A stretch of DNA of 58,579 nt from Patescibacteria group bacterium (GTDB lineage: Bacteria > Patescibacteriota > Patescibacteriia > 2-12-FULL-57-11): the NCBI GenBank assembly GCA_004299275.1, contig SCSU01000061.1, positions 1 to 58,579 on the forward strand, written 5' to 3'. This document shows positions 1,313 through 58,579 of the stretch, piece after piece (within the stretch, counting starts at the first letter, position 1; the number at the start of each line of letters is the position of its first letter). The notes under the pieces are model-generated. The model saw nothing but the letters and a program-made list of their open reading frames with translations, did not search any database and had not been told where the DNA came from. A program made the position numbers and the translations under genes.

Positions 1313-1314
1313 AA

Positions 1315-21462: not shown

Positions 21463-21482
21463 CTTTATTATCGGAATGAAAA

Positions 21483-21513
21483 ACACCCCGACCTGCGTCG
21501 GGGTGTTTTTTTT
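21483..21513. terminator. bidirectional rho-independent terminator between convergent genes
   Basis: ACACCCCGAC-CTGC-GTCGGGGTGT flanked by AAAA and TTTTTTT. Confidence 0.75.
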
Positions 21514-21583
21514 GGACCCAGTGGGAATCGAACCCACATCTTCCGGATGCAAACCGGATGCTCTACCACTAAGCTATGGGCCC
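21513..21583 (-). tRNA. tRNA-Ala (anticodon UGC)
   Basis: GGGCCCA..GCTTAGTGGTAGAGC..TCCGG-TTTGCAT-CCGGA..GTGGGTTCGATTCCCAC-TGGGTCC-A. G3:U70 is present. Confidence 0.85.
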
Positions 21584-21669: not shown

Positions 21670-21702
21670 CAAAAACACCCCCCGATGTACATCGGGGGGT
21701 GT
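21670..21702 (-). terminator. rho-independent terminator after the RRM-protein gene
   Basis: ACACCCCCCGAT-GTAC-ATCGGGGGGTGT with a T run on the minus strand. Confidence 0.7.
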
Positions 21703-21725
21703 TTGGCTTGAAAACCGCGGGAGCT

Positions 21726-29554: not shown

Positions 29555-29631
29555 GTCATCTCGACCAAGGCGGAGAGATCTTCAATTCGACGAAAAAGAG
29601 TTGAAGATCCCTCGGCTCCGCTCGGGATGAC
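29555..29631 (+). repeat. structured repeat, family D (copy 1 of 2), in the argS upstream region
   Basis: GTCATCTCGACCAAGGCGGAGAGATCTTCAATTCG...TTGAAGATCCCTCGGCTCCGCTCGGGATGAC. A second copy lies at 50791-50895. Confidence 0.8.
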
Positions 29632-33944: not shown

Positions 33945-34083
33945 GCCTTCGCCAAGGCTTCGGCTGGCAAGCCAGATGTAGCTCAAGCGACGGCTGGCAT
34001 GCCGGCAGGAAGGTTTGGCGAAGGCTGTCCTTCGTAGCTTGCAGAGCGAAGAAGGGCAAAAGACGCTCCGACGAACGTCGGAG

Positions 34084-34160
34084 CGTCTTTAATGGGCGGT
34101 TAGCTCAGCTGGTTAGAGCGTCTCGTTTACACCGAGAAGGTCGTAGGTTCGAATCCTACA
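34084..34160 (+). tRNA. tRNA-Val (anticodon UAC), CCA encoded
   Basis: GGGCGGTTAGCTCAGCTGGTTAGAGCG-TCTCG-TTTACAC-CGAGA-..GTAGGTTCGAATCCTAC-ACCGCCC-ACCA. Confidence 0.9.
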
Positions 34161-34163
34161 CCG

Positions 34164-34189
34164 CCCACCAAAGCACCCCGACGCATGTC
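34164..34189 (+). terminator. rho-independent terminator after tRNA-Val
   Basis: CACCCCGAC-GCAT-GTCGGGGTG followed by TTTT. Confidence 0.75.
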
Positions 34190-34257
34190 GGGGTGTTTTG
34201 TATCTTGACTAATTTTAAATTTCCTTTATATTTCTGTCGTCCCCTGAGGAGGAAACG

Positions 34258-47242: not shown

Positions 47243-47902
47243 ATGGCAATAACTCGTAGCAATATTCGCGCGGCGGTGGAGGTTCTTAAAAAAGGCGGGT
47301 TGGTTATTTATCCCACGGAGACTGCTTACGCCCTTGGCTGTGACAGTCGGAACCTGAGCGCTGTCCGTCGTATCTATGCGCTTAAAGGCCGTCAGCGGCA
47401 GAAACCGCTTGCGCTCATCGCCGCCGGCCTCAAAATGGTCAAACATTTTTTTCGATTCACGACTCACTATCCCGCCTTTGACGGGACCCCCCGCCTCTGG
47501 CGGGGTGGCTCACGGCTCACTCGCAAGCACTGGCCCGGCCCCTTGACGCTTGTTCTTCCAGTAAAGAATCCCCGTCTCCGACGCGCGCTTGGAGCGCGCG
47601 AGGTCGGCGTGCGCGTCTCGCCGCAGGCGGTTGCCCGAGCTCTTTCCAAATATCTCGGCGCGCCGATTGTCGCCACTTCGGCCAACCGAAGCGGTAAAGG
47701 GAATTGTTATTCAATTCGCGCGGTCCGCCGTTCCTTCGGCCTTTCACGAGATTGGACTCCGACGTTACGTCGGAGTCCAATCTCGAAAGTCGTGTTTATC
47801 CTCGACTCCGGTCATCTTCCGCGGCGGAGACCGTCAACCGTAGTCGCTTTCCGCAAAGGTAAACCAATAGTCCTCCGGCAGGGACCAATTAGGATTTCGT
47901 AA
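47243..47902 (+). CDS. tsaC: L-threonylcarbamoyladenylate synthase (YrdC/Sua5 family) carrying two in-frame repeat insertions
   Basis: GGLVIYPTETAYALGCD...YALKGRQRQKPLALI...HWPGPLTLVLP...ATSANRSG...PSTVV. Confidence 0.85.
   Translation: MAITRSNIRAAVEVLKKGGLVIYPTETAYALGCDSRNLSAVRRIYALKGRQRQKPLALIAAGLKMVKHFFRFTTHYPAFDGTPRLWRGGSRLTRKHWPGPLTLVLPVKNPRLRRALGAREVGVRVSPQAVARALSKYLGAPIVATSANRSGKGNCYSIRAVRRSFGLSRDWTPTLRRSPISKVVFILDSGHLPRRRPSTVVAFRKGKPIVLRQGPIRIS
47456..47524 (+). repeat. double-hairpin repeat, family E (copy 1 of 2), inside tsaC and in frame
   Basis: TTCACGACTCACTATCCCGCCTTTGACGGGACCCCCCGCCTCTGGCGGGGTGGCTCACGGCTCAC. Encodes THYPAFDGTPRLWRGGSRLT. Confidence 0.85.
47751..47781. repeat. 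31-nt perfect palindrome inside tsaC, in frame
   Basis: ATTGGACTCCGACGT-T-ACGTCGGAGTCCAAT. Encodes RDWTPTLRRSPI. Related CCGACG-N-CGTCGG hairpins lie at 34058-34090 and 50858-50880. Confidence 0.85.
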
Positions 47903-47932: not shown

Positions 47933-49099
47933 ATGCTTCAACCCGGCGGCTCGCAAATATTCTGGAAGTACTTGGTCGCCCACCCCTCGCGTCAGGTGAG
48001 GGAACTTTTTCTTTCCACGGCGATTATGGATTTCGCCGTCGCGGCGATTACGATTTTTGAGCCGATTTACCTGTTCAAAATCGGTTTCAGCATTCCTCAA
48101 ATCATCCTTTTTTATCTAAGCATTTACGGCTTTTACTTTGTCATCCAACCCCTGGGCGGCAAAATTACCCGCTCGCGCGGCTACGAGCACGGGATTATTT
48201 TTTCCACGCCTTTTTTGATTCTTTATTATCTGTCGCTTTTTGCCATCCCTTACTCGCCGCTCTTCGCCGCGGTCGCGGTGATTGCCTTCGCCATCCAAAA
48301 AACTCTTTACTGGCCCGGGTTTCACGCCGACTTCGCCCGTTTCGGTTCGGTCGCCGAACGCGGCCGGGAATTCGGCGCGCTGGTTTTTTTGCTCTCCATC
48401 TCGGCGGTAACCGGGCCGGTTTTCGGCGGTCTCATCCTCAAATTTTTTGGCTTCCCCGCGCTTTTCGTGATTGTCTCTTTGATTATTCTGCTATCGAACA
48501 TTCCGCTTTTAACCACGCCCGAAAAGTTTAAACCGCGCGAACTTTCTTACCGCGACGCTTACAAACGGCTCTTTCGCCCCGAGCACCGGCGGCTCGTCCT
48601 CGCCCATATCGGCTATGGCGAGGAATTGTTCGCGGCAGTTCTTTGGCCGCTCATGATGTTTTCGATCATCGGTCATTTTGCCACACTAGGTTTGATCGTA
48701 ACTTTGGGGACGCTCTTTACCGCCGTCGTCGGCTTTGTCATCGGGCGGCTCACCGACACCGCCCCGCGCCGCAGCATCCTCCGATTGGGCGGAATTTTTA
48801 CGGCGCTCTCTTGGCTCACGCGTATCACCGTTGCCTCGCCGTTAGCGGTGCTCGGCATCGAGGCCATCTACCGCTCTGGACGCATGGCCCAGGCATTGCC
48901 CATGACGGCCATGACCTACGACCGCGGCCGGGAGTACTCGGTCACCAAAACCGCGCTCCTCTTCGAGATGGCCGTGGTGATCGGCAAGGCGTCGGCCGCG
49001 CTCTTCGCGCTCCTCGCTTTTATTTTCGCGCCGGATTACGCTTGGCCGATTGTCTATCTGCTCGCCGCGGCGTATACGCTGTTGTATTTGGTGTTTTAA
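47933..49099 (+). CDS. MFS-type transporter
   Basis: 388 aa with about 12 hydrophobic segments. Confidence 0.75.
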   Translation: MLQPGGSQIFWKYLVAHPSRQVRELFLSTAIMDFAVAAITIFEPIYLFKIGFSIPQIILFYLSIYGFYFVIQPLGGKITRSRGYEHGIIFSTPFLILYYLSLFAIPYSPLFAAVAVIAFAIQKTLYWPGFHADFARFGSVAERGREFGALVFLLSISAVTGPVFGGLILKFFGFPALFVIVSLIILLSNIPLLTTPEKFKPRELSYRDAYKRLFRPEHRRLVLAHIGYGEELFAAVLWPLMMFSIIGHFATLGLIVTLGTLFTAVVGFVIGRLTDTAPRRSILRLGGIFTALSWLTRITVASPLAVLGIEAIYRSGRMAQALPMTAMTYDRGREYSVTKTALLFEMAVVIGKASAALFALLAFIFAPDYAWPIVYLLAAAYTLLYLVF

Positions 49100-49100
49100 T

Positions 49101-49182
49101 ATGCCCGGTAGTGAAACGCCGACGGCAAGCCGGACACAGACCTTGAAGGTCTGTAAAAACGGACCTTCAAGGTCTGTGTGTA
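49101..49182 (+). promoter_or_regulatory. rsmA leader: uORF head (ATGCCCGGTAGTGAAACGCCGAC) fused to the family C module
   Basis: The first 9 codons, MPGSETPTA, match the nrdJ/valS uORF heads. There is no 3' arm. The frame is open into rsmA. Confidence 0.6.
49134..49180. repeat. GACCTTGAAGGTC double-palindrome module (family C, copy 3 of 3)
   Basis: ACACAGACCTTGAAGGTCTGTAAAAACGGACCTTCAAGGTCTGTGTG. Confidence 0.85.
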
Positions 49183-49988
49183 TGGATTTAACCGACCGTA
49201 CAGAATTGCGCGCGCTTCTTGCCCGCCACGGCATCACGCTGGCCAAAACCTACGGCCAGCATTTTTTGGTTGACCGCCGCGTGCTGGAGATGATTGTGGA
49301 AACAGCCTTCCCTATTCCCTATACCCTATTCCCTATACCCCTAGTTTTCGAGGTCGGCCCCGGCGCCGGCACGCTCACGCGTGAACTTGCGGCGCGCGCC
49401 GGGCGCGTCATCGCCGTTGAGCGCGACCCGCGTTTTTTGCCCGTGCTCGAGGAGACGCTCAGCGAGTTTGGCAATGTTCAAATCATCGAAGCCGACGCCT
49501 TAAAAATCTCCTTCAGTCAACTCACCCCTCCCTATACCCTAGACCCTAGACCCTATACCCTTGTCTCCAACCTCCCTTACGAAATCACCACGCCTTTTCT
49601 CTGGAAAATTTTGGAAGAGGAGCCGGTTGTGCCGGCGCAAGCCGTCCTCTTAATCCAAGCCGATGTCGCCGAGCGAATTCTGGCCAAGCCGCCCAAGATG
49701 AATCTGCTCGCGCTTTTGGTCCAGCTCTCGGGCGAGGTGAAACTTGTCCGCAAGGTTCCGGCTTCGGCATTTTTTCCGCCGCCGCGGGTCCAGAGCGCGA
49801 TTATTGAAATCATCCCCAGATTGGATATCCGCCAAGCGCCAAGCGCTAAGCGCCAAGCTCTTTCCTTGGCCCGCCGCGCTTTTGCCAACCCCCGCAAAAA
49901 ATTAGGCAATACTTTGGGCAATCAGGCCGGGCGTTTTGCCGCTCGCCGGCCCGGGGAGCTCGGGGTGGAGGACTGGCTGGAGTTGTGA
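49183..49988 (+). CDS. rsmA: 16S rRNA (adenine1518/1519-N6)-dimethyltransferase RsmA/KsgA with three in-frame heptamer insertions
   Basis: MDLTDRTELRALLARHGITLAKTYGQHFLVD...EVGPGAGTLT...SNLPYEITTP. Start set at ATG 49183; the track ORF (49050) reads through the leader repeats. Confidence 0.85.
49311..49338. repeat. heptamer array CCTATTC CCTATAC CCTATTC CCTATAC inside rsmA
   Basis: Direct reading. Encodes FPIPYTLFPIP just before the EVGPGAGTLT SAM motif. Confidence 0.9.
49530..49560. repeat. heptamer array CCCTATA CCCTAGA CCCTAGA CCCTATA inside rsmA
   Basis: Direct reading. Encodes PPYTLDPRPYT just before SNLPY. Confidence 0.9.
49831..49858. repeat. heptamer array GCCAAGC GCCAAGC GCTAAGC GCCAAGC inside rsmA
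   Basis: Direct reading. Encodes RQAPSAKRQAL. Confidence 0.9.
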
Positions 49989-50108: not shown

Positions 50109-50741
50109 ATGGTTCAATCTTCCTGGTCTGATTCGCACCGTCTCTCGCTCGCCGTGCTGGCCGGCGCGACGGCGGTTATGCTCTCTTTCGGCTTTCTTTC
50201 CATTGGCCGGGCCATCCAGCGGCCTTTTGAACCCAAGGGTCCCCCCACTAAAACCTACGACGAACAGGCCAAGGAGGCGGAGCAGGCCCTCAAGGTCAAG
50301 GACACGGACGGCGATGGGCTCTCCGACTGGGATGAAATTAAAATTTATAACACCAGCGCCTATATCGCCGACACCGACTCGGACGGCAAGAGCGACGGCG
50401 AGGAAGTAAAAATGGGCGAAGACCCCAACTGCCCCGCCGGCAAAACCTGCGCGAGCTCGGCCGCCTATCTCGCTCCGCCGGCCAAAGTTGACCCCGAGGA
50501 CCTGCTTAATAATTCCGCCAATCCTTTTGAAAATATTTTCCAAAGTTCCGGCTCGGCGCTGGATGTCTCCCTGCTCGCCGCTTTTGACGCCCCCAAGATT
50601 CGCGCGCTCCTTAAGGCCTCGGGCGTCGCCCAGGACACTTTGGACAAACTCACCGACAGCCAGCTTGAAGCTATATATAAGGAAGCTCTCGCCGACCAAG
50701 TGCCGACCTCCACCGCAAAATCCGTTCTGGGAGCACAATAA
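50109..50741 (+). CDS. membrane-anchored protein with thrombospondin type-3-like calcium-binding repeats
   Basis: N-terminal TM helix, then DTDGDGLSDWDE and DTDSDGKSDGEE. Confidence 0.65.
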   Translation: MVQSSWSDSHRLSLAVLAGATAVMLSFGFLSIGRAIQRPFEPKGPPTKTYDEQAKEAEQALKVKDTDGDGLSDWDEIKIYNTSAYIADTDSDGKSDGEEVKMGEDPNCPAGKTCASSAAYLAPPAKVDPEDLLNNSANPFENIFQSSGSALDVSLLAAFDAPKIRALLKASGVAQDTLDKLTDSQLEAIYKEALADQVPTSTAKSVLGAQ

Positions 50742-50745
50742 TAAT

Positions 50746-50787
50746 GTGAGTAGTGAGTAGAACGTAGAACATAGAACGTAGTATTTA
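50746..50787. repeat. heptamer array GTGAGTA GTGAGTA GAACGTA GAACATA GAACGTA GTATTTA
   Basis: Direct reading. Starts 5 nt after the stop codon. Confidence 0.8.
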
Positions 50788-50790
50788 TTC

Positions 50791-50895
50791 GTCATCTCGA
50801 CCAAGGTGGAGAGATCTCCAATTCGTCAATGCGATAAGAACTGAAGATCCCTCGACCCCGGTCCGACGTAACGTCGGACCTTCGCTCGGGATGAC
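50791..50895 (+). repeat. structured repeat, family D (copy 2), with a nested CCGACG hairpin
   Basis: GTCATCTCGACCAAGGTGGAGAGATCTCCAATTCG...CTGAAGATCCCTCGACCCCGGTCCGACGTAACGTCGGACCTTCGCTCGGGATGAC. Confidence 0.8.
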
Positions 50896-50900
50896 ATCTG

Positions 50901-50964
50901 CTCACGACTCACGATCCCGCCTTTGGCGGGACCCCCCGCCGCTGGCGGGGTGGCTCACTACGCC
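50901..50964 (+). repeat. double-hairpin repeat, family E (copy 2), immediately upstream of the giant ORF
   Basis: CTCACGACTCACGATCCCGCCTTTGGCGGGACCCCCCGCCGCTGGCGGGGTGGCTCACTACGCC. Confidence 0.85.
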
Positions 50965-50965
50965 A

Positions 50966-53900
50966 ATGTCTCCTTCCGCTCGCCGCCGAGCCGCACTCAC
51001 GCTTGTCTGTCTCTTCCTCACTGCGGAGGTTGGTGTTTTTGGTTTGGCCGCGGCGGCCAACGCCCAAGGCGGCGCGGTGACAATCCTCCCTTCTCCAGCG
51101 GCCGGCATCGGGCCGGTTTTTGTCCGCACCGATGTCGGCGTCCGGGACTCGGTCCGCTTCGGCCTCTTGGCCACGCTCCTGATGAGTTCCTTGAACGCGA
51201 TTAATTATTTTGCCCAAAAAATCGCTTTTGACTACGCCGAGCAGGTCTCCGAAGGCGGGCCCGGGCAGAAGCCGCTCTTTTTTACCGAGGATTGGAAAGA
51301 TTATCTCAGGGATGTCGCTCTGGATTCAGTCGGCGAATTTTTGGGCACGCTAAACCAGTCCGGACTCCTGCCGTTTAACGTCTGCGCGCCGAGCATCAAC
51401 ATTGTTGTCCCCTTGGCCTTGGGCATCCTCTTTGACGATTACCGGCCGCCCAAGCCCAAGTGCGAATGGAAGGCGATACAGGCCGCTTACAAAAATCTTA
51501 CTTTTAACCTGACCACCGACCTCTCGCTCAAGGCCACGGCCTCAATGTTTGAGCCGGGCCAGTCGGAGTTGGACGCCGCGATTCGCGCCGCTTCGCTGGC
51601 GCGCCAGCGCATTCCGCCGGTCCAAAACCCGGCGGCGCTCGCGCGCTCCTCCGGCCGGGGCTTCCTCGACCTTCGGAGTCCGCTGTCGCGGAATGTCCTC
51701 ACGCCCGCCGAGCTCATCCGCCACCAGACCTTGGCGGAAACCGTGGATGAACCGAACAGGGCCAAAGACCTCTCCTGGCGGGGCTCGTGGGAGGTGATTA
51801 AAGCCGCGCCGGAGAATATCGGGCTGGCCGCTTTAAACACTTTTATCACCCATTTAGTTTCTAAACTGATTCAAAAGGCGCTCAAGGGTTTGCTGTTTCA
51901 CCCGCCGGACCAGCCTGTCTGCAACCTCGGCATCGCCGGCTGCAGCGGCGGCATGGCTGACCAAAATGCCGGCAATAATCCGGAGGATTTAGGCACGGCG
52001 CGTCGCCTGAACGCCGACCTGATTACGCCCGCGCTCCAGTCCGACGCCCGCTATGATATCCTAACCGAACTCGCCACCTGCCCGGATAAATTTCGCACGC
52101 CCAATAATTGCGCCGTGGACACCCAGCTCGCGGCGCTCGTCGGCCAGGGGCCGCGGGACGGCAAATACTTCACGGTCAAAGAAGCGCTGGACGCCGGGTA
52201 TCTGCACGGCGACTGGCCGCTCATCTCCAACTCCGAGACGCACCGCGCGCGAAACGCCGACCCCTACTGTTTTGCCAGCGGCTATTGCTACTCTAACTTG
52301 GTCAAATTGCGCAAGGCGCGGATTTTGCCCGTCGGCTGGGAGCTCGCCGCGGCCAAAAGTCCGGCTGACCCGGTCAAACTTTCCGAAGTCGTCGCCAAAT
52401 TCAACGACTGTCCCACGCCCGAGGACCCCAACCCCGCCAATCATCCCTGGTGCAAACTCATTGACCCCAACTGGATATTGAAAGTGCCTGTTACCCAGTG
52501 CCGGCTCCGCGGCTTTGGCGCCACGATGCTCGACGACCAGGGCGGCGGCCGGGCGGAAATCTGTCTGGATCAGCCCTCCTGCATGCAAGAGGACAAAAAC
52601 GGCAACTGCTTGGTCGGTTACGGCTATTGCGCCCGCGAAAAAAATATCTGGCGAATCGGCGGCCGCGAGTGTCCGAGCGCCTACGCCTCCTGCGCCAGTT
52701 TTGCCGGCCGCGCTGGCGAGTCGCTGACCGTGCTCCAGTCCAGTTTGGACCAAGGCGTCTGCAACGCGGAGAATGTCGGCTGCCGCGCTTATTCCACAGT
52801 CCGCGACAGTAAGGACGCGAGCGCTTGGCTCTATTCCCCGGGCCGTGACCGCGTTTTCCTGAATCGACAGGTGAGCGCTTGCGAGGCCAAGGACGCCGGC
52901 TGCGGCAAGGTTATAGATAAAGAAGGTCTGCGCCGGAATTTGGTGCTGAATTCCTCGTTTGAGGAAGATGTCGCGCCGAATGCCGGGCTCTTCGCCCGCT
53001 ACTGGACCAAGGCCGAGTGGGGCACGCAGTGGTTAAGCGACCAAGCCATGAGCCGGAGCGGCAGTCATTCGCTCGCGCCGCCGGACTACCAAAAATCCAA
53101 TGATGTTGACGTCGCGGTCAAGCAGACCGTTAACCTCGACCCCAACGCGACCTACACCGTGTCTTTTTACGGCCGGCAGGAGAAAACCGGAGAAAAAGGC
53201 GGTTTAATTTTGCGGCTGGGGGTGCTCTCGGACGCCGGGGTTGTGCCCATAGCCGACAGCGCCACCAACTGCGCCGCGAATGGTGAGTGGCGGGCGCTCT
53301 TTGGCGTTCCGGCCGGTGTCGGCTGGGAACGCTATTCCTGCACCCTCGTTTTGCCGCCGAAGGTTTTCACTCCGCCCGGCTACGCCAAACCGGTAACGCA
53401 GACCGGCCAGCTCGCCGTGAACTTGTATCGCATCGGCGACCGGCCCTTGGTTGACGACTTGCAGATTGAAGACGGCTCTCGCGCCACCGACTATCACGGC
53501 TCCGCTTTTGAGGGCGGCGCGCTGGTGACGCTCAAAACGCCGCCGGAGTACCTCGGCTGTAGCGGCGAGGCGGCCAAAGACCCCAAGGACTGCGGCCGCT
53601 ACGCCCAAGTCTGCCGTTCGGACGAAGTCGGCTGTGACCGTTTTACTCCGCTCGAGGGCGGCATCGCGCTCACGGCCGTGGTTTCGGGGAATGACGGCTG
53701 TCCCTCCGAGTGCGTCGGCTATGAGACCTTTAGAAAAGAAGAGACAAACTACGACACCGCCAGCTATCCGCTCTACTTCATCCCCAAGACCGCGGCCTCT
53801 TGCGGCGCGGCCGCTAACGGCTGTTCGGAGTTCACCAATTTAGACACGCAGGCCGCCGGCGGGGAGGCGCGGGAATACTTTACTTATCTCCGGCCCTGCG

Positions 53901-56900
53901 AGCGGCCGACCGCCGAAGTCCCCACCTACTACACTTGGGAGGGCTCAGACACCGCCGGCTATCAGCTCAAAGAGTGGCACCTCAAAGTCGGCGCCGCGTT
54001 CCCCAATGAGCCGGCCGGAACAACCGGCGTCAAACCGCCGGCCACGGTGCCCGGTTACAACCCCGCTTTCTGCACCAAGGCCATTTACCAGTCCGGCGGC
54101 GACCCCGACTGCCGCGAGTTTTTGGACGCCGACGGCAAAGTTTATTATCGGCTGTATTCCAAAACCATCATCATCACGAGCGACTGCCATCCTTACCGCC
54201 TGACTAAAGCGCCGGAGGACACCTCAGTCAAATCCGAGAACGCCTGCACCGGCGGCAAGCACTGGGCCGTCGGCAAATGCCTCGTCTGCGAAGACCTGGG
54301 GGGAACTTGGAACGCCGCGGCCGGCGAATGTACCTTTTACGGTTTGCGCTCCGAGTCCAACACCTGTTCATCGGCCGAGAACGGCTGCCGGCTGTTTACC
54401 GGCAACGCCGGCGGCAACGTCCAGACGATGCTCACCGAGACCTTTGAGGGCGCGCTTTCCTCTGGCTGGCTCAATACTCTAAAAGCCAACCCGAGCACGG
54501 TCGCGACCTCCACCGAGTCCACGGTCGTGGGCGGCGCTTCGCTCAAAATCACCGGCTCGCTCGCGGCCGCTTACAATTTTGTCACTTCCACTCCGCCCGC
54601 GCTCACCCAAGGCGACTTGTATCTCCTGAATTTTTGGGCCAAGGGCGCGAACGGTAATTTTGCCAACCTGAGTTTTACCAACCCCACGACCAATGAGACC
54701 GTCAAATTCCTCGACCCGGCGGTAAAACAAGTCGGGCTCACCGGCAACTGGAAGGCCTACAGCTTCGGCCCGGTGGTTTTGACCATTAACCCTAAATCCG
54801 CGGACGCGGTTAAGGGCATCAATCTTTCGTTCGCCGCCGGGATGCCGGGCAATTCGTCGTGGTATCTGGACAACATTGAGCTTAAAAAAATCGGGAGTGC
54901 CGTCGCCGCGATTGACGGCTCGTGGAAAACCCCGGCGATTTGCGACCAGAGTCCGGCCGGAGCGCCCCTGCCCCAGTATTACCTTGGTTGTGCCAGCTAC
55001 ACCGACCGCACCGACGCGACGCGCAACCTCCGTTCCTTTGACCGGCTCTGCCGTAGCGCCGCGGTCGGCTGCCGCGCCTATCTGGATACCCGCAACAACG
55101 ATTTTATCGGTTATGAGTACTGGAACGCCTTGGCGACTTTGCCGGTGAAGGCCACGGTTCCCACGCCGGTCAAGGGTTCTTACAGTGAGACCGTGTGCAC
55201 TGTTTCGCCCGAGCAGTCCTCCTGCCGTTATAACTTAAAGAGCGGCAACCGCCCGGCTTTGAATATCTTGGGGACAGTAGTTGAGTGCAGCCGGCCGGAT
55301 AAAAGCGAGGGCTCCTGTTCCATTGACGGAACTTACATCTGTGAGGTGAAAAAAGGGGAGACCAAATGCGCCGGGAGCCCCTCGGACCTCGTCACCGTGC
55401 CGCCGGACCGGACAGTGTACCTCGTGGACGCCGAAGGCAAGCGCTGTGACGCCTCGCAAGCCGGCTGCAGCGAGGTCGGAGCGCCGCAGGGTTCGGTTTG
55501 CGGCCTGCTCTCGCCCTGTAAGCCCTCCGGCGGCGCCGTCACCTGCAAATGCGAGGCGCCGGTTGAGAACTGCGGCTACAACGCCCAAAACCAGTTTATC
55601 TGTTCCGCCAAAAACCAATTCGTCTGCGATGTGCCGAGCGGCCAGAGCTCCTGCACCTATGCCCTGCCGCAAAACGAGCCCTACGGCAAACTGTCTTATA
55701 CCAGCAAAAATTTGATTTTAAATCCGGAGCTCTACCAAACCCAGGTCTGCTCCGGCCCGGCGGTTGGCTGTGAGGAATGGAAATCAGCCAATAGGAACGC
55801 CCCGGGAATCGCTTACTTCAAAACACCGGACGGCCGCTACTGCGAGTATCGGGAAAAGGTGCAAATAAACGGCGCCGAGTACTCCGGCTACTTTCTGCAA
55901 GGTAAGGATTCGCCTTGCGACCCGACTTACGTGATCGGCGGCAACTACTACGGCCTGCGCAAAACCGGCGACGCCAATTACAAGGGCTATGTCGGCTCCT
56001 GCTCCTCGGAGTTCGCCGGCTGCACCGAGTTTATTGACCACGCCGACCTGACGGTTAAACAAATCGGTAACAAGTTCGTCGCCGACCCGGCCCGCTACTA
56101 CTACGTCAAAGACCAGAGCATTGACGACGCCTCCTGCAACGGCCAGGCGTCGCCCAAAGAGGGTTGCCTGCTGCTTGAAGACACGAGCAAACCCGAGATT
56201 AGTTATTCCGCGGTCGGCACTTACGGTGACAGCGCCAACAAGGACTACCGGCTCGTGCCCGCCCGGCCCGGCTACTGCGGCTACAAGATTGACTGCGCCA
56301 ACGGCGCGCCGGTCCAAAACATCATCGGCAACCTCGGCGCCGGCTGGGTCGCGCCGTTCTATAACACGCTCGAGGACTATCTGGCCAACCCGCAGTTCTG
56401 GCCCTTTGCCAGCAAGGGCTATCAGAAAGACATTTTGAAAAAGGAATTTTTCTACCGCGCAAGCTTTACCCCCAAAGACGCCAAGGATGTCTGCCAGCTG
56501 ATAAAAAAACTCTTCAACGCCGACCTGCCCTTTACCTACGCCGGTCGGGGCTGCAGCGTCAAGCAGGATTGCGCGGGCAACGGCTTGGACGCGAGCGCCG
56601 ACTGCGTGGCCGCGAGTTCGGAATTTACTCCGTCCGCGCCGGCCAACTCGGTGGTTAAGGTCAGCCGCGACCGCGTCTGCGGCGCTTGGTTCGCCTGCAA
56701 GAGCTCTTCTCCGGTTTTTGACCCGCGCACCAACCGCTTCCGTGAGGTTTGCGACCAAATCGGACTTTGCGATCAAGCCTCGCTTGCCGAACAAAAGGAC
56801 ACGAGCAAGGTGGACATCACTCTCTGCAAACGGTGGGTCAACGACGCCGAGTCCAGGCAAATTCTTTCGGAAAAATTGTACCGCGAGCGGGATGTCTCTT

Positions 56901-58579
56901 TTTCCGGCTTTGATTACTCCGGCTACAGCGTGCCGCACCAGTTCCCGGCGAGTGTCCTCTCTCAGGCCAAAATCGGCAGCCGCTGCGCGGTGCCCCAAGG
57001 CGTCTCCTGCGACCCCAAGGTGAACTCTAACGCCGCCCAAAACGGCAAGGCCGACTGCTCGTGTCAGTCGTCGTTTGACTGTCCTTCGACTCTCGGGCCG
57101 GACAAAAAACCAACGGTCAACCGCTACTCCTGCGACCCGGTTTATTCGCTGGGCAATGACCTCGGCGCCTGTCCGTTTGTCCCGCAGAATCCCGATGTCG
57201 GAAAAGACGGCGACACCTGTCTTGTCGGCGGCGGCGAGGTTGCCTATTGCCAAAATCCCGCCCAGCAGAATTGCTGTCGTAACGGGATTGTGGAAGGGAT
57301 TGAGGGCTGTGACGACGGTAACAGTATTTCCGGCGACGGCTGCAGCGCCGGTTGCGGACTGGAGGGCAAGTGTTTTGGCCGGCGGTGTTATCAGTCAGCT
57401 TTCGGCAAAACCGACCCGGTAGCGCTGGATGGGCCGCAGGCGCTCGAGCCCGTCGGTTCGGAGAATATCGGCAAAAATACGCTGGAATTTTCCTGTCGCG
57501 CCTACCCCGAGGCGAGCTCGCCCGTGCCCGGTGACGTCGTCTTGGCGCGCAACACCGACACCGGCGCGCCGGAGTCGGTCAAACAGGGCTTCCAAGGCGC
57601 GGCCATTTGCGAAGAGGGGGAGAACTGCGAATGCAATTATCAAAAAGCCAAATACAGCGGCGGCGAGCTCAAGTATTTCGGCTCCAGCGCGCCGCTCGCC
57701 AATACCGGCCGCTGCTCCGGCGGGCCGTTTGACGGCGCGGCTTGCGACCCGCTCCAGAACCGCTTTAAGGAGCGCAACGCGGTGAAAAATGTTTTGACCT
57801 GCAACGCCGCGCAAGTGGCGGCCGGCGGCGCGACCGAGGGCGACTGCCAGCCGGTTCAGCGCGCCGACTTGGTCCGCGGGTTCCAAGGGTTCTGTTTGGA
57901 GCGCGACGAGACGACACCCATCTACGGTCGCGAGCTCGCCGCTGGCGCTCCGAGCCGCGCTTGCCTCACATGGCTCCCGACCGACCGGCTCTCCGGCCAG
58001 CCCGACCTCTTTAACCAATACAAGAGCGCGACCTACGAGCTCCGCGACAGTTACGCCTGCGCCCTGCCGCAGGTCTACCGCGTGATGAAGGCCTCGGGGC
58101 CTTATGCTAAGGACTTTGCTACTGGCAAGGATGTGAATGCCCAGCAGGATATCTGGCTGGGGACAGTGGCTTCGGACGGGGATCAGTTCAACAAAAACGC
58201 GTTTAACCCTTTCCTGTTCTGCCCGCCTTCAACCGGGTTTGTGGTGATGGGCGCCTGCACCAACAATAGCGGTGAGGTTGAAGGAGCCGGTTTGGGGATA
58301 GGACCCCCAATGTTCAATCAAAAACCAGTGCTCAATTATGTTTGCGTGCCGTGGGGTTCGGTGCACCTTGCCGAACGCTCGCGCGGCAAATCTGGAAACG
58401 GTCAATACACGACTGTTCCGAGTCCGCCGGACATCGCCCAAAATTACCTAAAAGAGTGTTCGTTTGCCGACTTCCCGATTTCGGGGCAACCGAGCATCGT
58501 CAACTATCAGGAGCTGGCGCGTTTCCCGCAGGGGATTTGCGCCCAGAATGTCAGTGAACAACAGCTCAGTAATTTGGAC
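50966..58579 (+). CDS. giant secreted cysteine-rich protein, at least 2,538 aa; 3' end outside the window
   Basis: Hand translation finds no stop from 50768 to the window end (not in the track because no stop is present). ATG 50966 gives signal peptide MSPSARRRAALTLVCLFLTAEVGVFGLAAAANA-QG. Two CBM/jelly-roll-like segments and one CCRNGIVEGIEGCDDGNSISGDGCSAGC repeat. Confidence 0.85.
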   Translation, partial: MSPSARRRAALTLVCLFLTAEVGVFGLAAAANAQGGAVTILPSPAAGIGPVFVRTDVGVRDSVRFGLLATLLMSSLNAINYFAQKIAFDYAEQVSEGGPGQKPLFFTEDWKDYLRDVALDSVGEFLGTLNQSGLLPFNVCAPSINIVVPLALGILFDDYRPPKPKCEWKAIQAAYKNLTFNLTTDLSLKATASMFEPGQSELDAAIRAASLARQRIPPVQNPAALARSSGRGFLDLRSPLSRNVLTPAELIRHQTLAETVDEPNRAKDLSWRGSWEVIKAAPENIGLAALNTFITHLVSKLIQKALKGLLFHPPDQPVCNLGIAGCSGGMADQNAGNNPEDLGTARRLNADLITPALQSDARYDILTELATCPDKFRTPNNCAVDTQLAALVGQGPRDGKYFTVKEALDAGYLHGDWPLISNSETHRARNADPYCFASGYCYSNLVKLRKARILPVGWELAAAKSPADPVKLSEVVAKFNDCPTPEDPNPANHPWCKLIDPNWILKVPVTQCRLRGFGATMLDDQGGGRAEICLDQPSCMQEDKNGNCLVGYGYCAREKNIWRIGGRECPSAYASCASFAGRAGESLTVLQSSLDQGVCNAENVGCRAYSTVRDSKDASAWLYSPGRDRVFLNRQVSACEAKDAGCGKVIDKEGLRRNLVLNSSFEEDVAPNAGLFARYWTKAEWGTQWLSDQAMSRSGSHSLAPPDYQKSNDVDVAVKQTVNLDPNATYTVSFYGRQEKTGEKGGLILRLGVLSDAGVVPIADSATNCAANGEWRALFGVPAGVGWERYSCTLVLPPKVFTPPGYAKPVTQTGQLAVNLYRIGDRPLVDDLQIEDGSRATDYHGSAFEGGALVTLKTPPEYLGCSGEAAKDPKDCGRYAQVCRSDEVGCDRFTPLEGGIALTAVVSGNDGCPSECVGYETFRKEETNYDTASYPLYFIPKTAASCGAAANGCSEFTNLDTQAAGGEAREYFTYLRPCERPTAEVPTYYTWEGSDTAGYQLKEWHLKVGAAFPNEPAGTTGVKPPATVPGYNPAFCTKAIYQSGGDPDCREFLDADGKVYYRLYSKTIIITSDCHPYRLTKAPEDTSVKSENACTGGKHWAVGKCLVCEDLGGTWNAAAGECTFYGLRSESNTCSSAENGCRLFTGNAGGNVQTMLTETFEGALSSGWLNTLKANPSTVATSTESTVVGGASLKITGSLAAAYNFVTSTPPALTQGDLYLLNFWAKGANGNFANLSFTNPTTNETVKFLDPAVKQVGLTGNWKAYSFGPVVLTINPKSADAVKGINLSFAAGMPGNSSWYLDNIELKKIGSAVAAIDGSWKTPAICDQSPAGAPLPQYYLGCASYTDRTDATRNLRSFDRLCRSAAVGCRAYLDTRNNDFIGYEYWNALATLPVKATVPTPVKGSYSETVCTVSPEQSSCRYNLKSGNRPALNILGTVVECSRPDKSEGSCSIDGTYICEVKKGETKCAGSPSDLVTVPPDRTVYLVDAEGKRCDASQAGCSEVGAPQGSVCGLLSPCKPSGGAVTCKCEAPVENCGYNAQNQFICSAKNQFVCDVPSGQSSCTYALPQNEPYGKLSYTSKNLILNPELYQTQVCSGPAVGCEEWKSANRNAPGIAYFKTPDGRYCEYREKVQINGAEYSGYFLQGKDSPCDPTYVIGGNYYGLRKTGDANYKGYVGSCSSEFAGCTEFIDHADLTVKQIGNKFVADPARYYYVKDQSIDDASCNGQASPKEGCLLLEDTSKPEISYSAVGTYGDSANKDYRLVPARPGYCGYKIDCANGAPVQNIIGNLGAGWVAPFYNTLEDYLANPQFWPFASKGYQKDILKKEFFYRASFTPKDAKDVCQLIKKLFNADLPFTYAGRGCSVKQDCAGNGLDASADCVAASSEFTPSAPANSVVKVSRDRVCGAWFACKSSSPVFDPRTNRFREVCDQIGLCDQASLAEQKDTSKVDITLCKRWVNDAESRQILSEKLYRERDVSFSGFDYSGYSVPHQFPASVLSQAKIGSRCAVPQGVSCDPKVNSNAAQNGKADCSCQSSFDCPSTLGPDKKPTVNRYSCDPVYSLGNDLGACPFVPQNPDVGKDGDTCLVGGGEVAYCQNPAQQNCCRNGIVEGIEGCDDGNSISGDGCSAGCGLEGKCFGRRCYQSAFGKTDPVALDGPQALEPVGSENIGKNTLEFSCRAYPEASSPVPGDVVLARNTDTGAPESVKQGFQGAAICEEGENCECNYQKAKYSGGELKYFGSSAPLANTGRCSGGPFDGAACDPLQNRFKERNAVKNVLTCNAAQVAAGGATEGDCQPVQRADLVRGFQGFCLERDETTPIYGRELAAGAPSRACLTWLPTDRLSGQPDLFNQYKSATYELRDSYACALPQVYRVMKASGPYAKDFATGKDVNAQQDIWLGTVASDGDQFNKNAFNPFLFCPPSTGFVVMGACTNNSGEVEGAGLGIGPPMFNQKPVLNYVCVPWGSVHLAERSRGKSGNGQYTTVPSPPDIAQNYLKECSFADFPISGQPSIVNYQELARFPQGICAQNVSEQQLSNLD

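What the first reader, a model, noticed from the sequence alone, without database searches (positions are those of the whole stretch)
50966..58579. Secreted cysteine-rich ORF of at least 2,538 codons running off the window
My hand translation in the frame of ATG 50966 has no stop up to 58579. The only long ORFs in the track here are antisense artefacts.
- Predicted Sec signal peptide (..GLAAAANA-QG).
- Two segments resembling carbohydrate-binding or jelly-roll modules: about 52925-53490 (NLVLNSSFEEDV...YTVSFYGRQ...LVDDLQIEDG) and about 54425-54890 (ETFEGALSSGW...YLLNFWAKG...WYLDNIELKKI).
- One Myxococcus-type Cys-rich repeat (CCRNGIVEGIEGCDDGNSISGDGCSAGC, about 57272-57360).
- Cys pairs occur throughout.

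Giant surface proteins are a recurring feature of CPR-type episymbionts and are candidate host-attachment factors. Most of this protein has no domain I can name.
Basis: partly seen in the sequence, partly recalled or inferred. Interest (0 to 1): 0.65.

Follow-up and report, generated by a model that had tools for sequence, protein, structure and literature searches.

The report
Giant secreted CPR surface protein
This is a real, intact gene fragment (about the first 80%) for a ~3,100-residue secreted, disulfide-rich protein that is conserved in hundreds of Uhrbacteria-type ultra-small groundwater bacteria, always sits behind a small membrane partner gene and usually just upstream of a type IV secretion system, and most likely acts as a sugar-binding arm for contacting other cells.

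Summary
The frame from ATG 50966 is open for 2,538 codons to the window end. Two independent assemblies show no indels, and the gene continues at least 1.7 kb further. Homologues of 2,600–3,800 aa imply about 595 residues are missing.

The Sec-type signal peptide is supported only by heuristics and family conservation. Database or structure evidence supports the other three:
- two CBM4/9/16/22-type jelly-roll modules;
- one myxo_disulf repeat;
- 113 Cys, about 50 of them invariant.

The rest of the protein matches no Pfam, NCBIfam, PDB-sequence or Foldseek entry.

New findings:
- The family is large (at least 1,132 clusters at 50% identity; at least 566 species genomes). Where an organism is named it is Patescibacteria (Uhrbacteria, Falkowbacteria, Magasanikbacteria), and the protein is called "hypothetical".
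- It is always preceded, at a median of 4 nt, by a small TM-anchored TSP3 (Ca-binding) protein.
- In 23–27 of 33 informative loci it lies upstream, on the same strand, of a type IV secretion cluster of the kind used by single-membrane (monoderm) bacteria (M23 hydrolase, VirB6-like, PrgI, VirB4, VirB8-like).

Best reading: a glycan-binding host-contact protein, possibly the adhesin not yet identified for the Patescibacteria type IV secretion system (T4SS). Function is inferred, not shown.

The parts
50109..50741 (+). Small partner gene (210 aa): an N-terminal TM anchor, two TSP3-type Ca-binding repeats (DTDGDGLSDWDE, DTDSDGKSDGEE) and a C-terminal tail
   Evidence: Pfam TSP3_bac at E 9e-7; sequence. 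A homologue lies directly upstream on the same strand in essentially all related loci that have upstream sequence, with a median gap of 4 nt.
50742..50965 (.). Intergenic gap of 224 nt, unusually long for this gene pair, made up of short interspersed repeats (D1, D10/D19, D8 with two GC hairpins)
   Evidence: the repeat finder. Assembler depth is 124x here against 26x in the ORF, and contigs break here in both runs. In relatives the start of the giant gene's stop-to-stop ORF lies a median 4 nt, at most 555 nt, after the partner's.
50966..58579 (+). Giant ORF: 2,538 codons, truncated at the contig end, about 81% of a gene of roughly 3,100 codons
50966..51064 (+). Sec-type signal peptide (aa 1-33, cleavage predicted after ANA)
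   Evidence: n/h/c regions read from the sequence; the motif is conserved in the family. This is a heuristic call, with no dedicated predictor.
51140..51895 (+). N-terminal all-helical domain (aa ~59-310) containing the conserved motif ...N..N.FAQK.A.DyAe..s.GG.G.kPLF...
   Evidence: AlphaFold model 1 shows long helices at low confidence. Family occupancy is 0.98 and pairwise identity 0.32. No database match.
52052..52852 (+). Most conserved core (aa 363-629): a confident alpha/beta part (363-510) followed by a Cys-rich beta-hairpin part
   Evidence: Pairwise identity 0.46-0.53, with many invariant Cys. Using aa 340-660 as the query, the core was found in 1,132 clusters at 50% identity, in the 150 hits listed mostly about 330-680 residues from the N-terminus. 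No known-fold match is attributable to this part in the whole-model Foldseek search, whose listed hits are dominated by CBM jelly-rolls.
52913..53500 (+). CBM-like beta-jelly-roll module 1 (aa ~650-845)
   Evidence: Foldseek matches CBM16/61/22/4 at E 3e-6, TM 0.65-0.72. The PDB profile hit to CBM16 is E 0.007. It is the least conserved of the confidently folded domains, pairwise identity 0.25-0.28.
53738..54382 (+). Confident beta-rich domain of unknown fold (aa ~925-1139)
   Evidence: Model 1 pLDDT 82-93; pairwise identity 0.41-0.47; no non-CBM match.
54401..54835 (+). CBM_4_9 module 2 (aa ~1146-1290; Pfam hit at 1156-1267)
   Evidence: Pfam PF02018 at E 2e-6, above the gathering cut-off. 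PDB profile hits to CBM22 (4xup, E 4e-7) and CBM4 (1gui, E 6e-6).
54836..58579 (+). C-terminal-ward Cys-rich, mostly beta region of several domains (aa 1291-2538) with no recognisable fold
   Evidence: Model 2 has mean pLDDT 55.9 with several domains at 70-90. Foldseek against the PDB gives no hit at E <= 0.001.
57275..57367 (+). Single Myxococcus-type cysteine-rich acidic repeat (aa 2104-2134), a lineage-specific insert
   Evidence: TIGR02232 at E 1.2e-5, above the cut-off. Family occupancy here is only 0.35.
52760..56032 (+). Seven copies of the short motif C-x6-G-C-x2-[FYW], starting at nt 52760, 53612, 53801, 54365, 55049, 55748 and 56000, mostly at domain boundaries
   Evidence: Regex count of 7 against 0.32 expected from 500 shuffles (maximum 4). 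Ten homologues carry 5-8 copies each.

Best explanation
The ORF is the 5' four-fifths of a genuine gene. It encodes a protein of about 3,100 residues (about 340 kDa; the part present is 269 kDa, pI 5.3) in a Uhrbacteria-type Patescibacterium from groundwater.

Proposed mechanism:
- The protein is exported by Sec and its signal peptide is cleaved. It then folds outside the cell into a chain of ten or more mostly beta domains, held by roughly 50 conserved disulfides and by short C-x6-GC-x2-[FYW] hairpins at domain boundaries.
- It has no LPXTG signal and no C-terminal anchor. It is most likely held at the cell surface through its conserved N-terminal helical domain and its obligate operon partner, a small type-II membrane protein with two Ca-binding TSP3 loops.
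- Two CenC-type (CBM4/9/16/22) jelly-roll modules are displayed on this conserved scaffold. They vary more than the scaffold, as expected for specificity determinants. I propose they bind polysaccharide on the envelope of the host or partner cell.
- The protein would therefore be a host-recognition and attachment arm.
- In most relatives the gene pair lies just upstream, on the same strand, of the Patescibacteria type IV secretion cluster (M23 hydrolase, VirB6-like, PrgI/VirB3, VirB4, VirB8-like). No adhesin has been identified for that system. The protein plausibly makes or stabilises the cell-cell contact through which that machine works.

Shown: the gene is real and intact; the family and its distribution; the signal-peptide features; the CBM folds; the Cys conservation; the partner gene; the synteny.

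Inferred: surface retention through the partner, glycan binding, host attachment, and cooperation with the T4SS.
For: Real and intact gene: (no indels in two assemblies).

Family: 88 homologues of mostly 2,500-3,700 aa, each named as Patescibacteria or 'hypothetical' where a name is given. The core occurs in 1,132 clusters at 50% identity at a fixed position. At least 566 species-representative genomes carry it.

Extracellular location: signal peptide; about 50 invariant Cys; 112 Cys in the mature part.

CBM modules. The same module type turns up in phage tail-fibre and receptor-binding proteins. The CBM modules are less conserved (0.25-0.29) than the scaffold (0.41-0.53).

Anchoring: no LPXTG and no C-terminal TM segment in 80 full-length homologues.

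Partner: a TSP3 plus TM protein is always directly upstream. This holds even in the subclade where the rest of the synteny is lost.

T4SS neighbourhood: PrgI, a VirB4 (PDB 4ag5, E 3e-50), a VirB8-like protein, a polytopic VirB6-like protein and an M23 hydrolase lie downstream on the same strand. At least one of the VirB6-like, p640, PrgI or VirB4 genes is within 10 kb in 23 of 33 loci, rising to 27 of 33 if M23 alone is counted. The VirB6-like gene is immediately adjacent in L012, L018, L061 and L081, and also in L049.

Literature: the Patescibacteria T4SS resembles the conjugation machinery of monoderm bacteria (the MPF-FATA class), mostly lacks a relaxase, often has KsgA nearby, and 'no adhesins such as PrgB were detected' (PMC12102498). 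In Saccharibacteria the T4SS and several glycan-binding envelope proteins are essential for epibiotic growth (PMC10633639).
Against: No expression, localisation or binding data exist, and no RNA runs hold the sequence.

CBM-type jelly rolls also occur in enzymes and structural proteins, and the ligand-binding residues were not examined.

About 85% of the protein has no recognisable fold, so an undetected activity is possible. Model confidence is modest (mean pLDDT 64 and 56).

The T4SS link rests on synteny alone. The same block also holds housekeeping genes (GroEL, RF, Sua5, KsgA), and unrelated genes often separate the giant gene from the T4SS by 1-9 kb. In a divergent subclade (L056, L062, L065, L075) neither KsgA nor T4SS genes are nearby.

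The window ends inside the gene, so the downstream genes of this particular organism are unknown.

The interaction with the partner protein is untested.
Confidence: 0.55

Rival explanations
1. Core envelope structural protein. The giant protein and its membrane partner would build a constitutive surface structure of the cell itself, such as an S-layer-like coat, a sheath or a cell-wall scaffold. The CBM modules would then bind the cell's own wall polysaccharide rather than a host's.
For: The pair is conserved at one place per locus in at least 566 species genomes, in a housekeeping neighbourhood. The neighbours are envelope genes: Wzy_C, an M23 peptidase, PEGA proteins and VanW/PG_binding_4. 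The scaffold is under clear purifying selection.
Against: Pfam reports no SLH or other S-layer domain. From general knowledge, classical S-layer proteins are Cys-poor, whereas this protein has 4.4% Cys. A 340-kDa monomer with variable CBM modules looks more like an adhesin than a lattice subunit. This rival is not excluded.
Confidence: 0.2
2. Polysaccharide- or cell-wall-degrading enzyme, or a predatory lytic factor. The CBM modules would target an unrecognised catalytic domain to host wall polymers for nutrient scavenging or entry. This has been proposed for giant proteins of Omnitrophota.
For: From general knowledge, CBM4/9/16/22 modules are typical appendages of glycoside hydrolases, and the closest PDB hits are from xylanases, a laminarinase and an endoglucanase. 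The Omnitrophota giant-gene preprint proposes adhesion plus wall digestion next to secretion systems (10.1101/2023.11.21.568195). Large parts of the protein are of unknown fold.
Against: No catalytic domain was found by Pfam, NCBIfam, the PDB profile search or Foldseek, in this protein or in three full-length homologues. A separate M23 hydrolase is encoded nearby and could supply lytic activity.
Confidence: 0.12
3. The protein is a surface adhesin, but it is functionally independent of the T4SS. The co-location would be inherited gene order in a compact genome with no mechanistic link.
For: The same syntenic block carries unrelated housekeeping genes. The spacing to the T4SS genes ranges from adjacent to about 9 kb, with unrelated inserts. 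A subclade keeps the pair without any nearby T4SS. The protein has a Sec signal, so it does not need the T4SS for export.
Against: The T4SS genes are on the same strand downstream in 23-27 of 33 loci across relatives as distant as about 28% identity, and are directly adjacent in several. The T4SS has no identified adhesin (PMC12102498).
Confidence: 0.3
4. Secreted toxin or effector delivered to the host cell.
For: It lies close to a secretion system, is large and multi-domain, and has regions of unknown function.
Against: No toxin or enzymatic domain was detected. A Sec signal peptide and dense disulfides fit a folded extracellular protein poorly suited to passage through a T4SS channel. The strong conservation of a single orthologue contrasts with the polymorphism typical of toxins.
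Confidence: 0.04
5. Not a gene: a chance open frame in GC-rich DNA, or an assembly chimera.
For: GC is about 60% here, and long antisense ORFs also occur.
Against: Homologues of mostly 2,500-3,700 aa match at E = 0 over 97-100% of the length. A single contiguous BLASTP alignment covers residues 26-2554. Two independent assemblies agree.
Confidence: 0.01

Closest known systems
CenC-type carbohydrate-binding modules (Pfam CBM_4_9, PF02018; CAZy CBM4, 9, 16, 22)
   Same: Two modules of the protein have this beta-jelly-roll. One passes the Pfam gathering score, and both match solved CBM structures by profile or fold.
   Different: They make up only about 13% of the window ORF. In the proteins behind the closest PDB hits the module is attached to a glycoside hydrolase; here no catalytic domain is detectable. 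The ligand and the binding residues are unknown.
Surface adhesins of Gram-positive conjugative T4SSs (for example PrgB/aggregation substance of pCF10)
   Same: A large Sec-exported surface protein encoded next to a PrgI/VirB4-type T4SS of the monoderm class. The proposed role is the same: making the cell-cell contact for the secretion machine.
   Different: No sequence or fold similarity was detected. There is no LPXTG sortase signal (0 of 80 homologues). The protein is about 2.4 times larger and rich in disulfides. Its anchor is presumed to be a separate small membrane protein. The published survey found no PrgB homologues in Patescibacteria (PMC12102498). This is a functional analogy only.
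Giant secreted proteins of Omnitrophota ('Giant genes are rare but implicated in cell wall degradation by predatory bacteria', bioRxiv 10.1101/2023.11.21.568195)
   Same: Very large, mostly unannotatable secreted proteins of small-celled, host-dependent bacteria. Domains for attachment and carbohydrate binding were found only through structure prediction. The genes lie next to a conserved secretion-system locus.
   Different: Different phylum and no homology. Those genes are at least 25 kb and lie next to a type II-like system. This gene is about 9.4 kb, next to a type IV system, with an obligate small partner.
Phage receptor-binding and tail-fibre proteins that carry CenC-like CBMs
   Same: The same module type is used to recognise surface polysaccharide on another cell (Foldseek BFVD hits). 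The modules are variable and sit on a conserved scaffold.
   Different: This is a chromosomal bacterial gene in a housekeeping context. No phage genes are nearby, and there is no trimeric fibre or beta-helix signature.
Essential glycan-binding envelope proteins and T4SS of Saccharibacteria (Southlakia epibionticum Tn-seq, PMC10633639)
   Same: The T4SS cluster has the same parts list: a PEGA exported protein, a wall hydrolase, a VirB6-like protein, PrgI, VirB4 and large hypotheticals. Envelope proteins with polysaccharide-binding or dockerin-like Ca-binding domains are required for epibiotic growth.
   Different: No 3,000-aa orthologue lies in or beside the Saccharibacteria cluster, where the largest genes encode about 1,100 aa. 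Among the homologues and genome titles that name an organism, this family was seen only in the Uhrbacteria/Falkowbacteria/Magasanikbacteria group.
Myxococcus cysteine-rich acidic repeat proteins (TIGR02232)
   Same: One copy of the repeat passes the NCBIfam cut-off.
   Different: It is a single copy rather than an array, in a poorly conserved insert (occupancy 0.35). It is not a family-defining feature.

Membership tests
Uncharacterised giant Patescibacteria protein family (P0002-P0089 and 1,132 clusters at 50% identity) | Collinear full-length homology, including the conserved core at about residues 330-680 | tested here: met
   45% identity over 97-100% of the query to P0002-P0006, with a single HSP covering residues 26-2554. 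The core was found in 1,132 clusters, in the listed hits mostly at about the same position.
Uncharacterised giant Patescibacteria protein family | Conserved Cys framework and C-x6-GC-x2-[FYW] motifs | tested here: met
   About 50 invariant Cys columns. Seven motif copies here against 5-8 in homologues.
Uncharacterised giant Patescibacteria protein family | Small TM plus TSP3 partner gene immediately upstream on the same strand | tested here: met
   Window 50109-50741. Present in essentially all related loci that have upstream sequence.
Uncharacterised giant Patescibacteria protein family | C-terminal domain ending ...DNWGWCNG...PW..Y.G.I.V.P | not testable with these tools
   The window ends about 595 residues before the expected C-terminus. 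X1's contig extends 1,712 nt further, but its sequence could not be retrieved.
CBM_4_9 (PF02018) | Pfam gathering score reached | tested here: met
   28.6 bits against a cut-off of 25.9, aa 1156-1267. Module 1 does not reach it by sequence, but does match by fold.
CBM_4_9 (PF02018) | Beta-jelly-roll fold superposable on solved CBM4/16/22 structures | tested here: met
   Module 1: Foldseek E 3e-6, target TM 0.65-0.72. Module 2 was not in either model and was tested by sequence profile only.
CBM_4_9 (PF02018) | Carbohydrate binding, with aromatic residues lining a cleft | not tested
   Binding-site residues were not examined. Binding itself needs an experiment.
Myxococcus cysteine-rich repeat (TIGR02232) | NCBIfam cut-off reached | tested here: met
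   25.1 bits against 20.8.
Myxococcus cysteine-rich repeat (TIGR02232) | Occurs as tandem arrays of repeats | tested here: not met
   Only one stretch matched, and self-comparison found no further copies.
Sec-dependent secreted proteins | N-terminal signal peptide with n, h and c regions and an AxA cleavage site | tested here: met
   Read from the sequence and conserved across the family. No dedicated predictor was run.
Sortase-anchored Gram-positive surface proteins (including PrgB-type T4SS adhesins) | C-terminal LPXTG motif followed by a hydrophobic segment and a charged tail | tested here: not met
   0 of 80 full-length homologues have LPXTG in the last 80 residues or a hydrophobic C-terminus. 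No sortase was found among the window ORFs that were scanned; several ORFs were not scanned.
Sortase-anchored Gram-positive surface proteins (including PrgB-type T4SS adhesins) | Sequence or fold homology to PrgB adhesin or Ig-like domains | tested here: not met
   No Pfam, NCBIfam, PDB or Foldseek match apart from the CBMs.
Component of the Patescibacteria T4SS locus (monoderm, MPF-FATA-like class) | Encoded in the virB4 neighbourhood together with PrgI/VirB3, VirB6-like and VirB8-like genes | tested here: inconclusive
   Met in relatives: 23-27 of 33 loci, same strand. Not met in one subclade. It cannot be seen for this organism, because the window ends inside the gene.
Component of the Patescibacteria T4SS locus (monoderm, MPF-FATA-like class) | Physical or functional dependence on the T4SS | not testable with these tools
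   Needs genetics, co-purification or cryo-ET.
S-layer proteins | SLH or other S-layer anchoring domain; low Cys content | tested here: not met
   Pfam reports no such domain. Cys content is 4.45%.
Glycoside hydrolases with appended CBMs | A recognisable catalytic GH domain | tested here: not met
   None found in the window protein or in full-length P0003, P0007 and P0064.

The most novel reading that the evidence does not exclude
The giant Cys-rich protein and its Ca-binding membrane partner together form the extracellular host-contact module, the 'missing adhesin', of the relaxase-less type IV secretion system of Uhrbacteria/Falkowbacteria-type Patescibacteria. The variable CBM modules would select the host's surface glycan and position the T4SS channel against the host envelope. 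The conserved domains that match no known fold would form a new kind of disulfide-stapled stalk.
Probability: 0.27. Interest if true: 0.75.

Novelty: new variant of a known kind. Interest (0 to 1): 0.55.

Why it matters
How uncultured Patescibacteria outside the Saccharibacteria find and hold on to their hosts is unknown. A published survey of their widespread, relaxase-less type IV secretion system found no adhesin.

This work defines a concrete and very widespread candidate (at least 566 species genomes, at least 1,132 sequence clusters):
- a conserved architecture;
- two variable glycan-binding modules that can be expressed and put on glycan arrays;
- an obligate small partner protein;
- a frequent genomic link to the T4SS.

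That turns a vague idea ("giant surface proteins may mediate attachment") into testable hypotheses. It also flags about 2,000 residues of conserved extracellular protein with no known fold.

For annotation purposes, it shows that the gene is real, that its start is ATG 50966, and that it is cut by the contig end and is not a pseudogene.

Tried and rejected
- Recovering the 3' end. The complete neighbouring protein is not on record in the contig index. An exact-match scan of metagenome contigs with the window's last 49 nt found nothing. Read laying shows that an X1 contig extends 1,712 nt further, but it does not return the sequence.
- Expression. No RNA run holds the sequence.
- Domain searches. 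NCBIfam gave only the single repeat. PADLOC found nothing for the giant protein or its partner. Rfam found only four tRNAs in the window. Pfam on three full-length homologues found only CBM_4_9, so the missing C-terminus carries no known domain either.
- Structure searches. Model 2 (aa 1290-2489) had no PDB match at E <= 0.001. In model 1 the CDTb and iota-toxin Ib hits have an rmsd of about 14-30 Å over long alignments, and I read them as arising from CBM-like receptor-binding domains, not as real similarity. The viral library returned only CBM-bearing tail proteins.
- Internal duplication. Self-BLAST found no repeated modules beyond the short Cys motif.
- Small genes between the giant gene and the T4SS in L001. 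No pilin or other Pfam hits.
- Promoter and terminator scan of the gap before the ORF. Nothing above chance.
- Literature. Four full-text searches found no paper describing this family. PF28074, precomputed for one partner homologue, is not in the local Pfam copy.
- Considered and rejected: PrgB-type or sortase-anchored adhesin membership, a classical S-layer protein, a CBM-appended glycoside hydrolase, and a chance ORF. See the membership tests and the rival explanations.


Full report
**1. The observation**

Translating window 50966-58579 on the + strand gives 2,538 codons with no stop. The nearest upstream in-frame stop is at 50765. There are two candidate ATG starts, 50891 and 50966. The database copy of this protein (P0001, 2,563 aa) was called from 50891, but the N-termini of its closest full-length relatives align to the methionine at 50966: P0003 residue 1 corresponds to P0001 residue 26.

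P0001 is recorded on a single contig of 58,579 nt, exactly the window length. The ORF runs off the end because the contig ends there. Contigs from two public groundwater-metagenome runs cover the whole ORF with no inserted or deleted letters and only two SNPs. One of them continues 1,712 nt beyond the window. Those other assemblies are short-read, so the long-read form of the test was not run.

A single BLASTP alignment joins P0001 residues 26-2554 to residues 1-2467 of the 3,062-aa P0003. About 595 residues, roughly 19% of the protein, are missing.

**2.

- *Signal peptide.* Residues 1-33 have a basic n-region (RRR), a 19-residue hydrophobic core (Kyte-Doolittle 2.1) and ANA|QG. The family consensus keeps P..A.AQ, and 61 of 80 full-length homologues pass a simple h-region plus AxA test. 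No dedicated predictor was available.
- *Module 2.* It passes the Pfam gathering score for CBM_4_9 (aa 1156-1267, E 2e-6). The family profile matches CBM22 and CBM4 chains in the PDB at E 4e-7 and 6e-6.
- *Module 1* (aa ~650-845). It is weak by sequence (CBM16, E 0.007). The AlphaFold model superposes on CBM16, CBM61 and CBM22 at Foldseek E 3e-6 with target TM 0.65-0.72.
- *Myxococcus-type repeat.* The hit is real: TIGR02232, aa 2104-2134, 25.1 bits against a cut-off of 20.8. It is a single copy in a poorly conserved insert.
- *Cysteines.* Cys makes up 4.45% of residues, with 112 in the mature part. About 50 Cys columns are invariant in a 40-sequence alignment.
- *A new motif.* A short motif, C-x6-G-C-x2-[FYW], occurs seven times against 0.3 expected. 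It is kept at 5-8 copies in homologues and lies mostly at domain boundaries.

**3. What the rest of the protein looks like**

Two AlphaFold2 jobs, each using 30 full-length homologues as the alignment, covered aa 34-1145 and aa 1290-2489. Mean pLDDT was 63.8 and 55.9. The models suggest this layout:

| Residues | Predicted structure | Confidence |
|---|---|---|
| ~59-310 | all-helical N-terminal domain | low |
| 363-510 | alpha/beta core | confident |
| 511-629 | Cys-rich hairpin region | low |
| ~650-845 | CBM-like module 1 | confident |
| ~925-1139 | beta domain of unknown fold | pLDDT 82-93 |
| ~1146-1290 | CBM_4_9 module 2 | not in either model |
| 1291-2489 | further mostly beta domains | mixed |

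Foldseek against the PDB and against BFVD returned only CBM-type jelly-rolls for model 1. In BFVD these occur in phage tail-fibre and receptor-binding proteins. Model 2 returned nothing at E <= 0.001. One limit applies: the models were searched whole, and the listed top hits are dominated by CBMs, so weaker matches to the other domains could be hidden. Pfam, NCBIfam and PADLOC add nothing, and the full-length family profile against PDB sequences hits only CBMs. Self-comparison finds no larger internal repeats.

The only strongly hydrophobic stretches are the signal peptide and one borderline segment at aa 138-156. None of the 80 full-length homologues has an LPXTG motif or a hydrophobic C-terminus.

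**4. Family and organism**

A word-indexed search found 88 homologues of mostly 2,500-3,700 aa. Where sources name them, they are Patescibacteria (Uhrbacteria, Magasanikbacteria) and "hypothetical"; one is "CBM-cenC protein".

An exhaustive HMMER search with the conserved core (aa 340-660) found 1,132 representative clusters at 50% identity. In the listed hits the core mostly lies about 330-680 residues from the N-terminus of proteins of about 2,600-3,800 aa; the shorter hits look like fragments. Titles that carry a real taxon say Uhrbacteria, Falkowbacteria or "Patescibacteria group". Many others carry labels that look wrong (see section 9).

The window's neighbours are ordinary housekeeping genes: tRNA synthetases, NusA, GroEL, RF, Sua5 and KsgA. 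Its GroEL is 81% identical to that of a Patescibacteria MAG, and its KsgA and Sua5 are closest to an Uhrbacteria MAG and an unnamed relative. NCBI places Uhrbacteria in the Parcubacteria group of the Patescibacteria. The CPR assignment is supported.

**5. Genomic context, the main new result**

I examined three long contigs and then 80 species-representative loci. The gene immediately upstream is a protein of about 210-250 aa with an N-terminal TM helix and TSP3-type Ca-binding repeats. It sits on the same strand with a median gap of 4 nt. This holds in essentially every locus that has upstream sequence. It also holds in a divergent subclade whose wider neighbourhood is different. The window has this gene at 50109-50741. 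Full-length members of the partner family are confined to Patescibacteria. The pair is therefore the invariant unit.

Further upstream the order Wzy_C, GroES/EL, RF, epimerase, Sua5, (MFS), KsgA is widely conserved and is present in the window.

Downstream, on the same strand, most relatives carry:
- an M23 peptidase;
- a 900-1,080-aa polytopic membrane protein (7-9 TM helices plus a large soluble part, VirB6/PrgH-like by topology);
- a soluble protein of about 640 aa;
- PrgI (VirB3-like);
- a TraC-N-like protein of 220-233 aa;
- a VirB4 ATPase (PDB 4ag5, E 2.7e-50);
- a VirB8-like protein.

These are documented.

Among the 33 loci with at least 9.7 kb of downstream sequence, 23 have at least one of the VirB6-like, p640, PrgI or VirB4 genes within 10 kb. 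The count is 27 if M23 alone is included. With one exception (an M23 gene on the opposite strand in L029) these genes are co-directional with the giant gene. In L012, L018, L061 and L081, and also in L049, the VirB6-like gene directly follows the giant gene. The subclade represented by L056, L062, L065 and L075 has neither KsgA nor T4SS genes nearby.

**6. What is already published**

A 2025 survey describes the Patescibacteria T4SS as a distinct lineage related to MPF-FATA, the type IV secretion class of single-membrane (monoderm) bacteria. It usually lacks a relaxase, and KsgA is frequent in the virB4 neighbourhood. The survey states that no adhesins such as PrgB were detected, and it does not mention a giant gene (PMC12102498).

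In the genetically tractable Saccharibacterium *Southlakia epibionticum*, the T4SS cluster is essential for epibiotic growth. That cluster holds a PEGA exported protein, a wall hydrolase, a VirB6-like protein, PrgI, VirB4 and hypotheticals of about 1,100 aa. Several envelope proteins with glycan-binding or dockerin domains are also essential. There is no 3,000-aa orthologue (PMC10633639).

A preprint on Omnitrophota reports much larger giant genes next to a type II-like secretion locus and proposes roles in adhesion and wall digestion. Four full-text searches found no description of the present family.

**7. Interpretation**

The safest statement is that this is a Sec-exported, disulfide-stabilised, multi-domain extracellular protein belonging to a large orthologous family.

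The best mechanistic reading (confidence about 0.55) is a host-contact or adhesin arm. Two CenC-type modules are displayed on a conserved scaffold. They are less conserved (pairwise identity 0.25-0.29) than the scaffold (0.41-0.53), the pattern expected for specificity determinants and seen in phage receptor-binding proteins. With no sortase signal and no C-terminal anchor, retention at the surface most plausibly runs through the N-terminal helical domain and the obligate TM plus Ca-binding partner. That step is inferred.

Cooperation with the T4SS is attractive, because that system lacks a known adhesin and the synteny is frequent and co-directional. It rests on gene order alone and is not universal. 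I put it at about 0.27-0.3.

The rivals are:
- a constitutive envelope structural protein (about 0.2);
- an enzyme with an undetected catalytic domain (about 0.12);
- a toxin or effector (about 0.04);
- a non-gene (about 0.01, effectively refuted).

**8. Novelty and interest**

The gene is a new member of a sequence family that already sits, unnamed, in the databases. As a kind of system, it is a variant of the known theme of large CBM-bearing surface adhesins next to a secretion system. It has an unusual architecture (about 85% unknown folds, a dense conserved disulfide framework), an obligate small partner, and a link to the Patescibacteria T4SS that I did not find reported.

It is moderately interesting to CPR specialists. 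It yields direct, feasible tests: glycan binding by the CBM modules, complex formation with the partner, and phylogenetic profiling. No cultured host-symbiont system exists yet for this lineage.

**9. Things seen in passing**

- The gap before the ORF (224 nt, against a median gap of 4 nt in relatives) is a patchwork of short interspersed repeats. They recur in other intergenic regions of the window and are multi-copy in the metagenome.
- One 57-nt copy lies inside Sua5 as an in-frame insertion of about 13 aa that three homologues lack.
- The true KsgA start is ATG 49182, and short repeats fall in its variable loops.
- The first 2 kb of the window has 40% GC against about 57% elsewhere and is bounded by a tRNA-Arg gene.
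- An IS-like element with 37-nt inverted ends lies at 11701-12980.
- Many GTDB records that carry this Patescibacteria locus are titled "uncultured Gammaproteobacteria bacterium", and a few "Candidatus Methylomirabilis sp." or "Candidatus Kapaibacterium sp.". I take these to be placeholder or wrong labels, but did not follow them up.

Noticed in passing
window 50742-50965, with copies at 15104, 19758, 20159-20193, 29555-29623, 40851, 44175 and 47457-47513: The gap between the partner gene and the giant ORF is a patchwork of short interspersed repeats that recur in other intergenic regions. These are D1 'AGTACATAGAACGTAGAACATAGAA' (7 copies), D10/D19, and the 57-nt D8 with two GC hairpins. Assembler depth is 124x here against 26x in the ORF, and contigs of both runs break here. 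They look like REP/MITE-type elements in a CPR genome.
   Followed up: partly
window 47457-47513 (inside Sua5, 47243-47902): A 95%-identical copy of the 57-nt D8 repeat lies inside the Sua5/TsaC coding sequence. It appears as an in-frame insertion of about 13 aa ('TTHYPAFDGTPRL') that three homologues lack. This recalls the in-frame palindromic elements of Rickettsia. A second window-specific insertion lies near aa 165-180.
   Followed up: partly
window 49050-49988 (KsgA); repeats at 49302-49340 and 49529-49567: Alignment with homologues puts the KsgA start at ATG 49182, not at TTG 49050. Short CCCTATA-type direct repeats (D7) fall in two variable loops of the protein ('IPYTLFPIP', 'PPYTLDPRPYTL').
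   Followed up: partly
window 1-2000: This stretch is a low-GC segment (0.40 against about 0.57 elsewhere) at the contig start, bounded by tRNA-Arg(CCG) at 1891-1964. It holds two minus-strand ORFs (260-1312 and 1315-1785) with no Pfam match. It may be an integrated island.
   Followed up: no
window 11701-12980: This looks like an IS-type element. A 382-aa minus-strand ORF (11742-12890) has a weak rve integrase-core hit (E 5e-4) and is flanked by 37-nt inverted repeats, 95% complementary, at 11701-11737 and 12944-12980.
   Followed up: partly
window 21480-21509, 21674-21703, 34060-34089, 34170-34199: Similar 30-nt GC-rich palindromic hairpins lie beside tRNA-Ala (21513-21583) and on both sides of tRNA-Val (34094-34170). 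One further copy lies about 90 nt downstream of tRNA-Ala. They may be terminators or processing signals.
   Followed up: no
window 50891 versus 50966: The database gene call for this ORF (P0001, 2,563 aa) starts 25 codons too early. Homologue N-termini and the position of the signal peptide support ATG 50966.
   Followed up: yes
L012 19189-21789; L018 14347-16994: In these T4SS clusters the VirB4 function appears split. A 220-233-aa ORF with weak TraC_F_IV N-terminal similarity precedes a 631-635-aa ATPase (P-loop_TraG; PDB 4ag5, E 3e-50).
   Followed up: no
L018 13445-13816: A gene for a 23S rRNA intervening-sequence protein (PF05635, E 1e-32) sits inside the T4SS cluster, between the ~640-aa gene and PrgI.
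   Followed up: no
L002 20381-22093 (-) and 23941-26232 (+); L001 22841-25213: Other Cys-rich secreted proteins cluster beside the giant gene in relatives. One is a 570-aa lipoprotein-like protein with 13% Cys and no Pfam hit. Others are M23 peptidases that carry MopE-type Cys-rich metal-binding motifs.
   Followed up: no
L008, L014, L018, L020 and many other loci: Many GTDB species-representative records that carry this Patescibacteria-specific locus are titled 'uncultured Gammaproteobacteria bacterium', and a few 'Candidatus Methylomirabilis sp.' or 'Candidatus Kapaibacterium sp.'. These look like placeholder or wrong organism labels.
   Followed up: no
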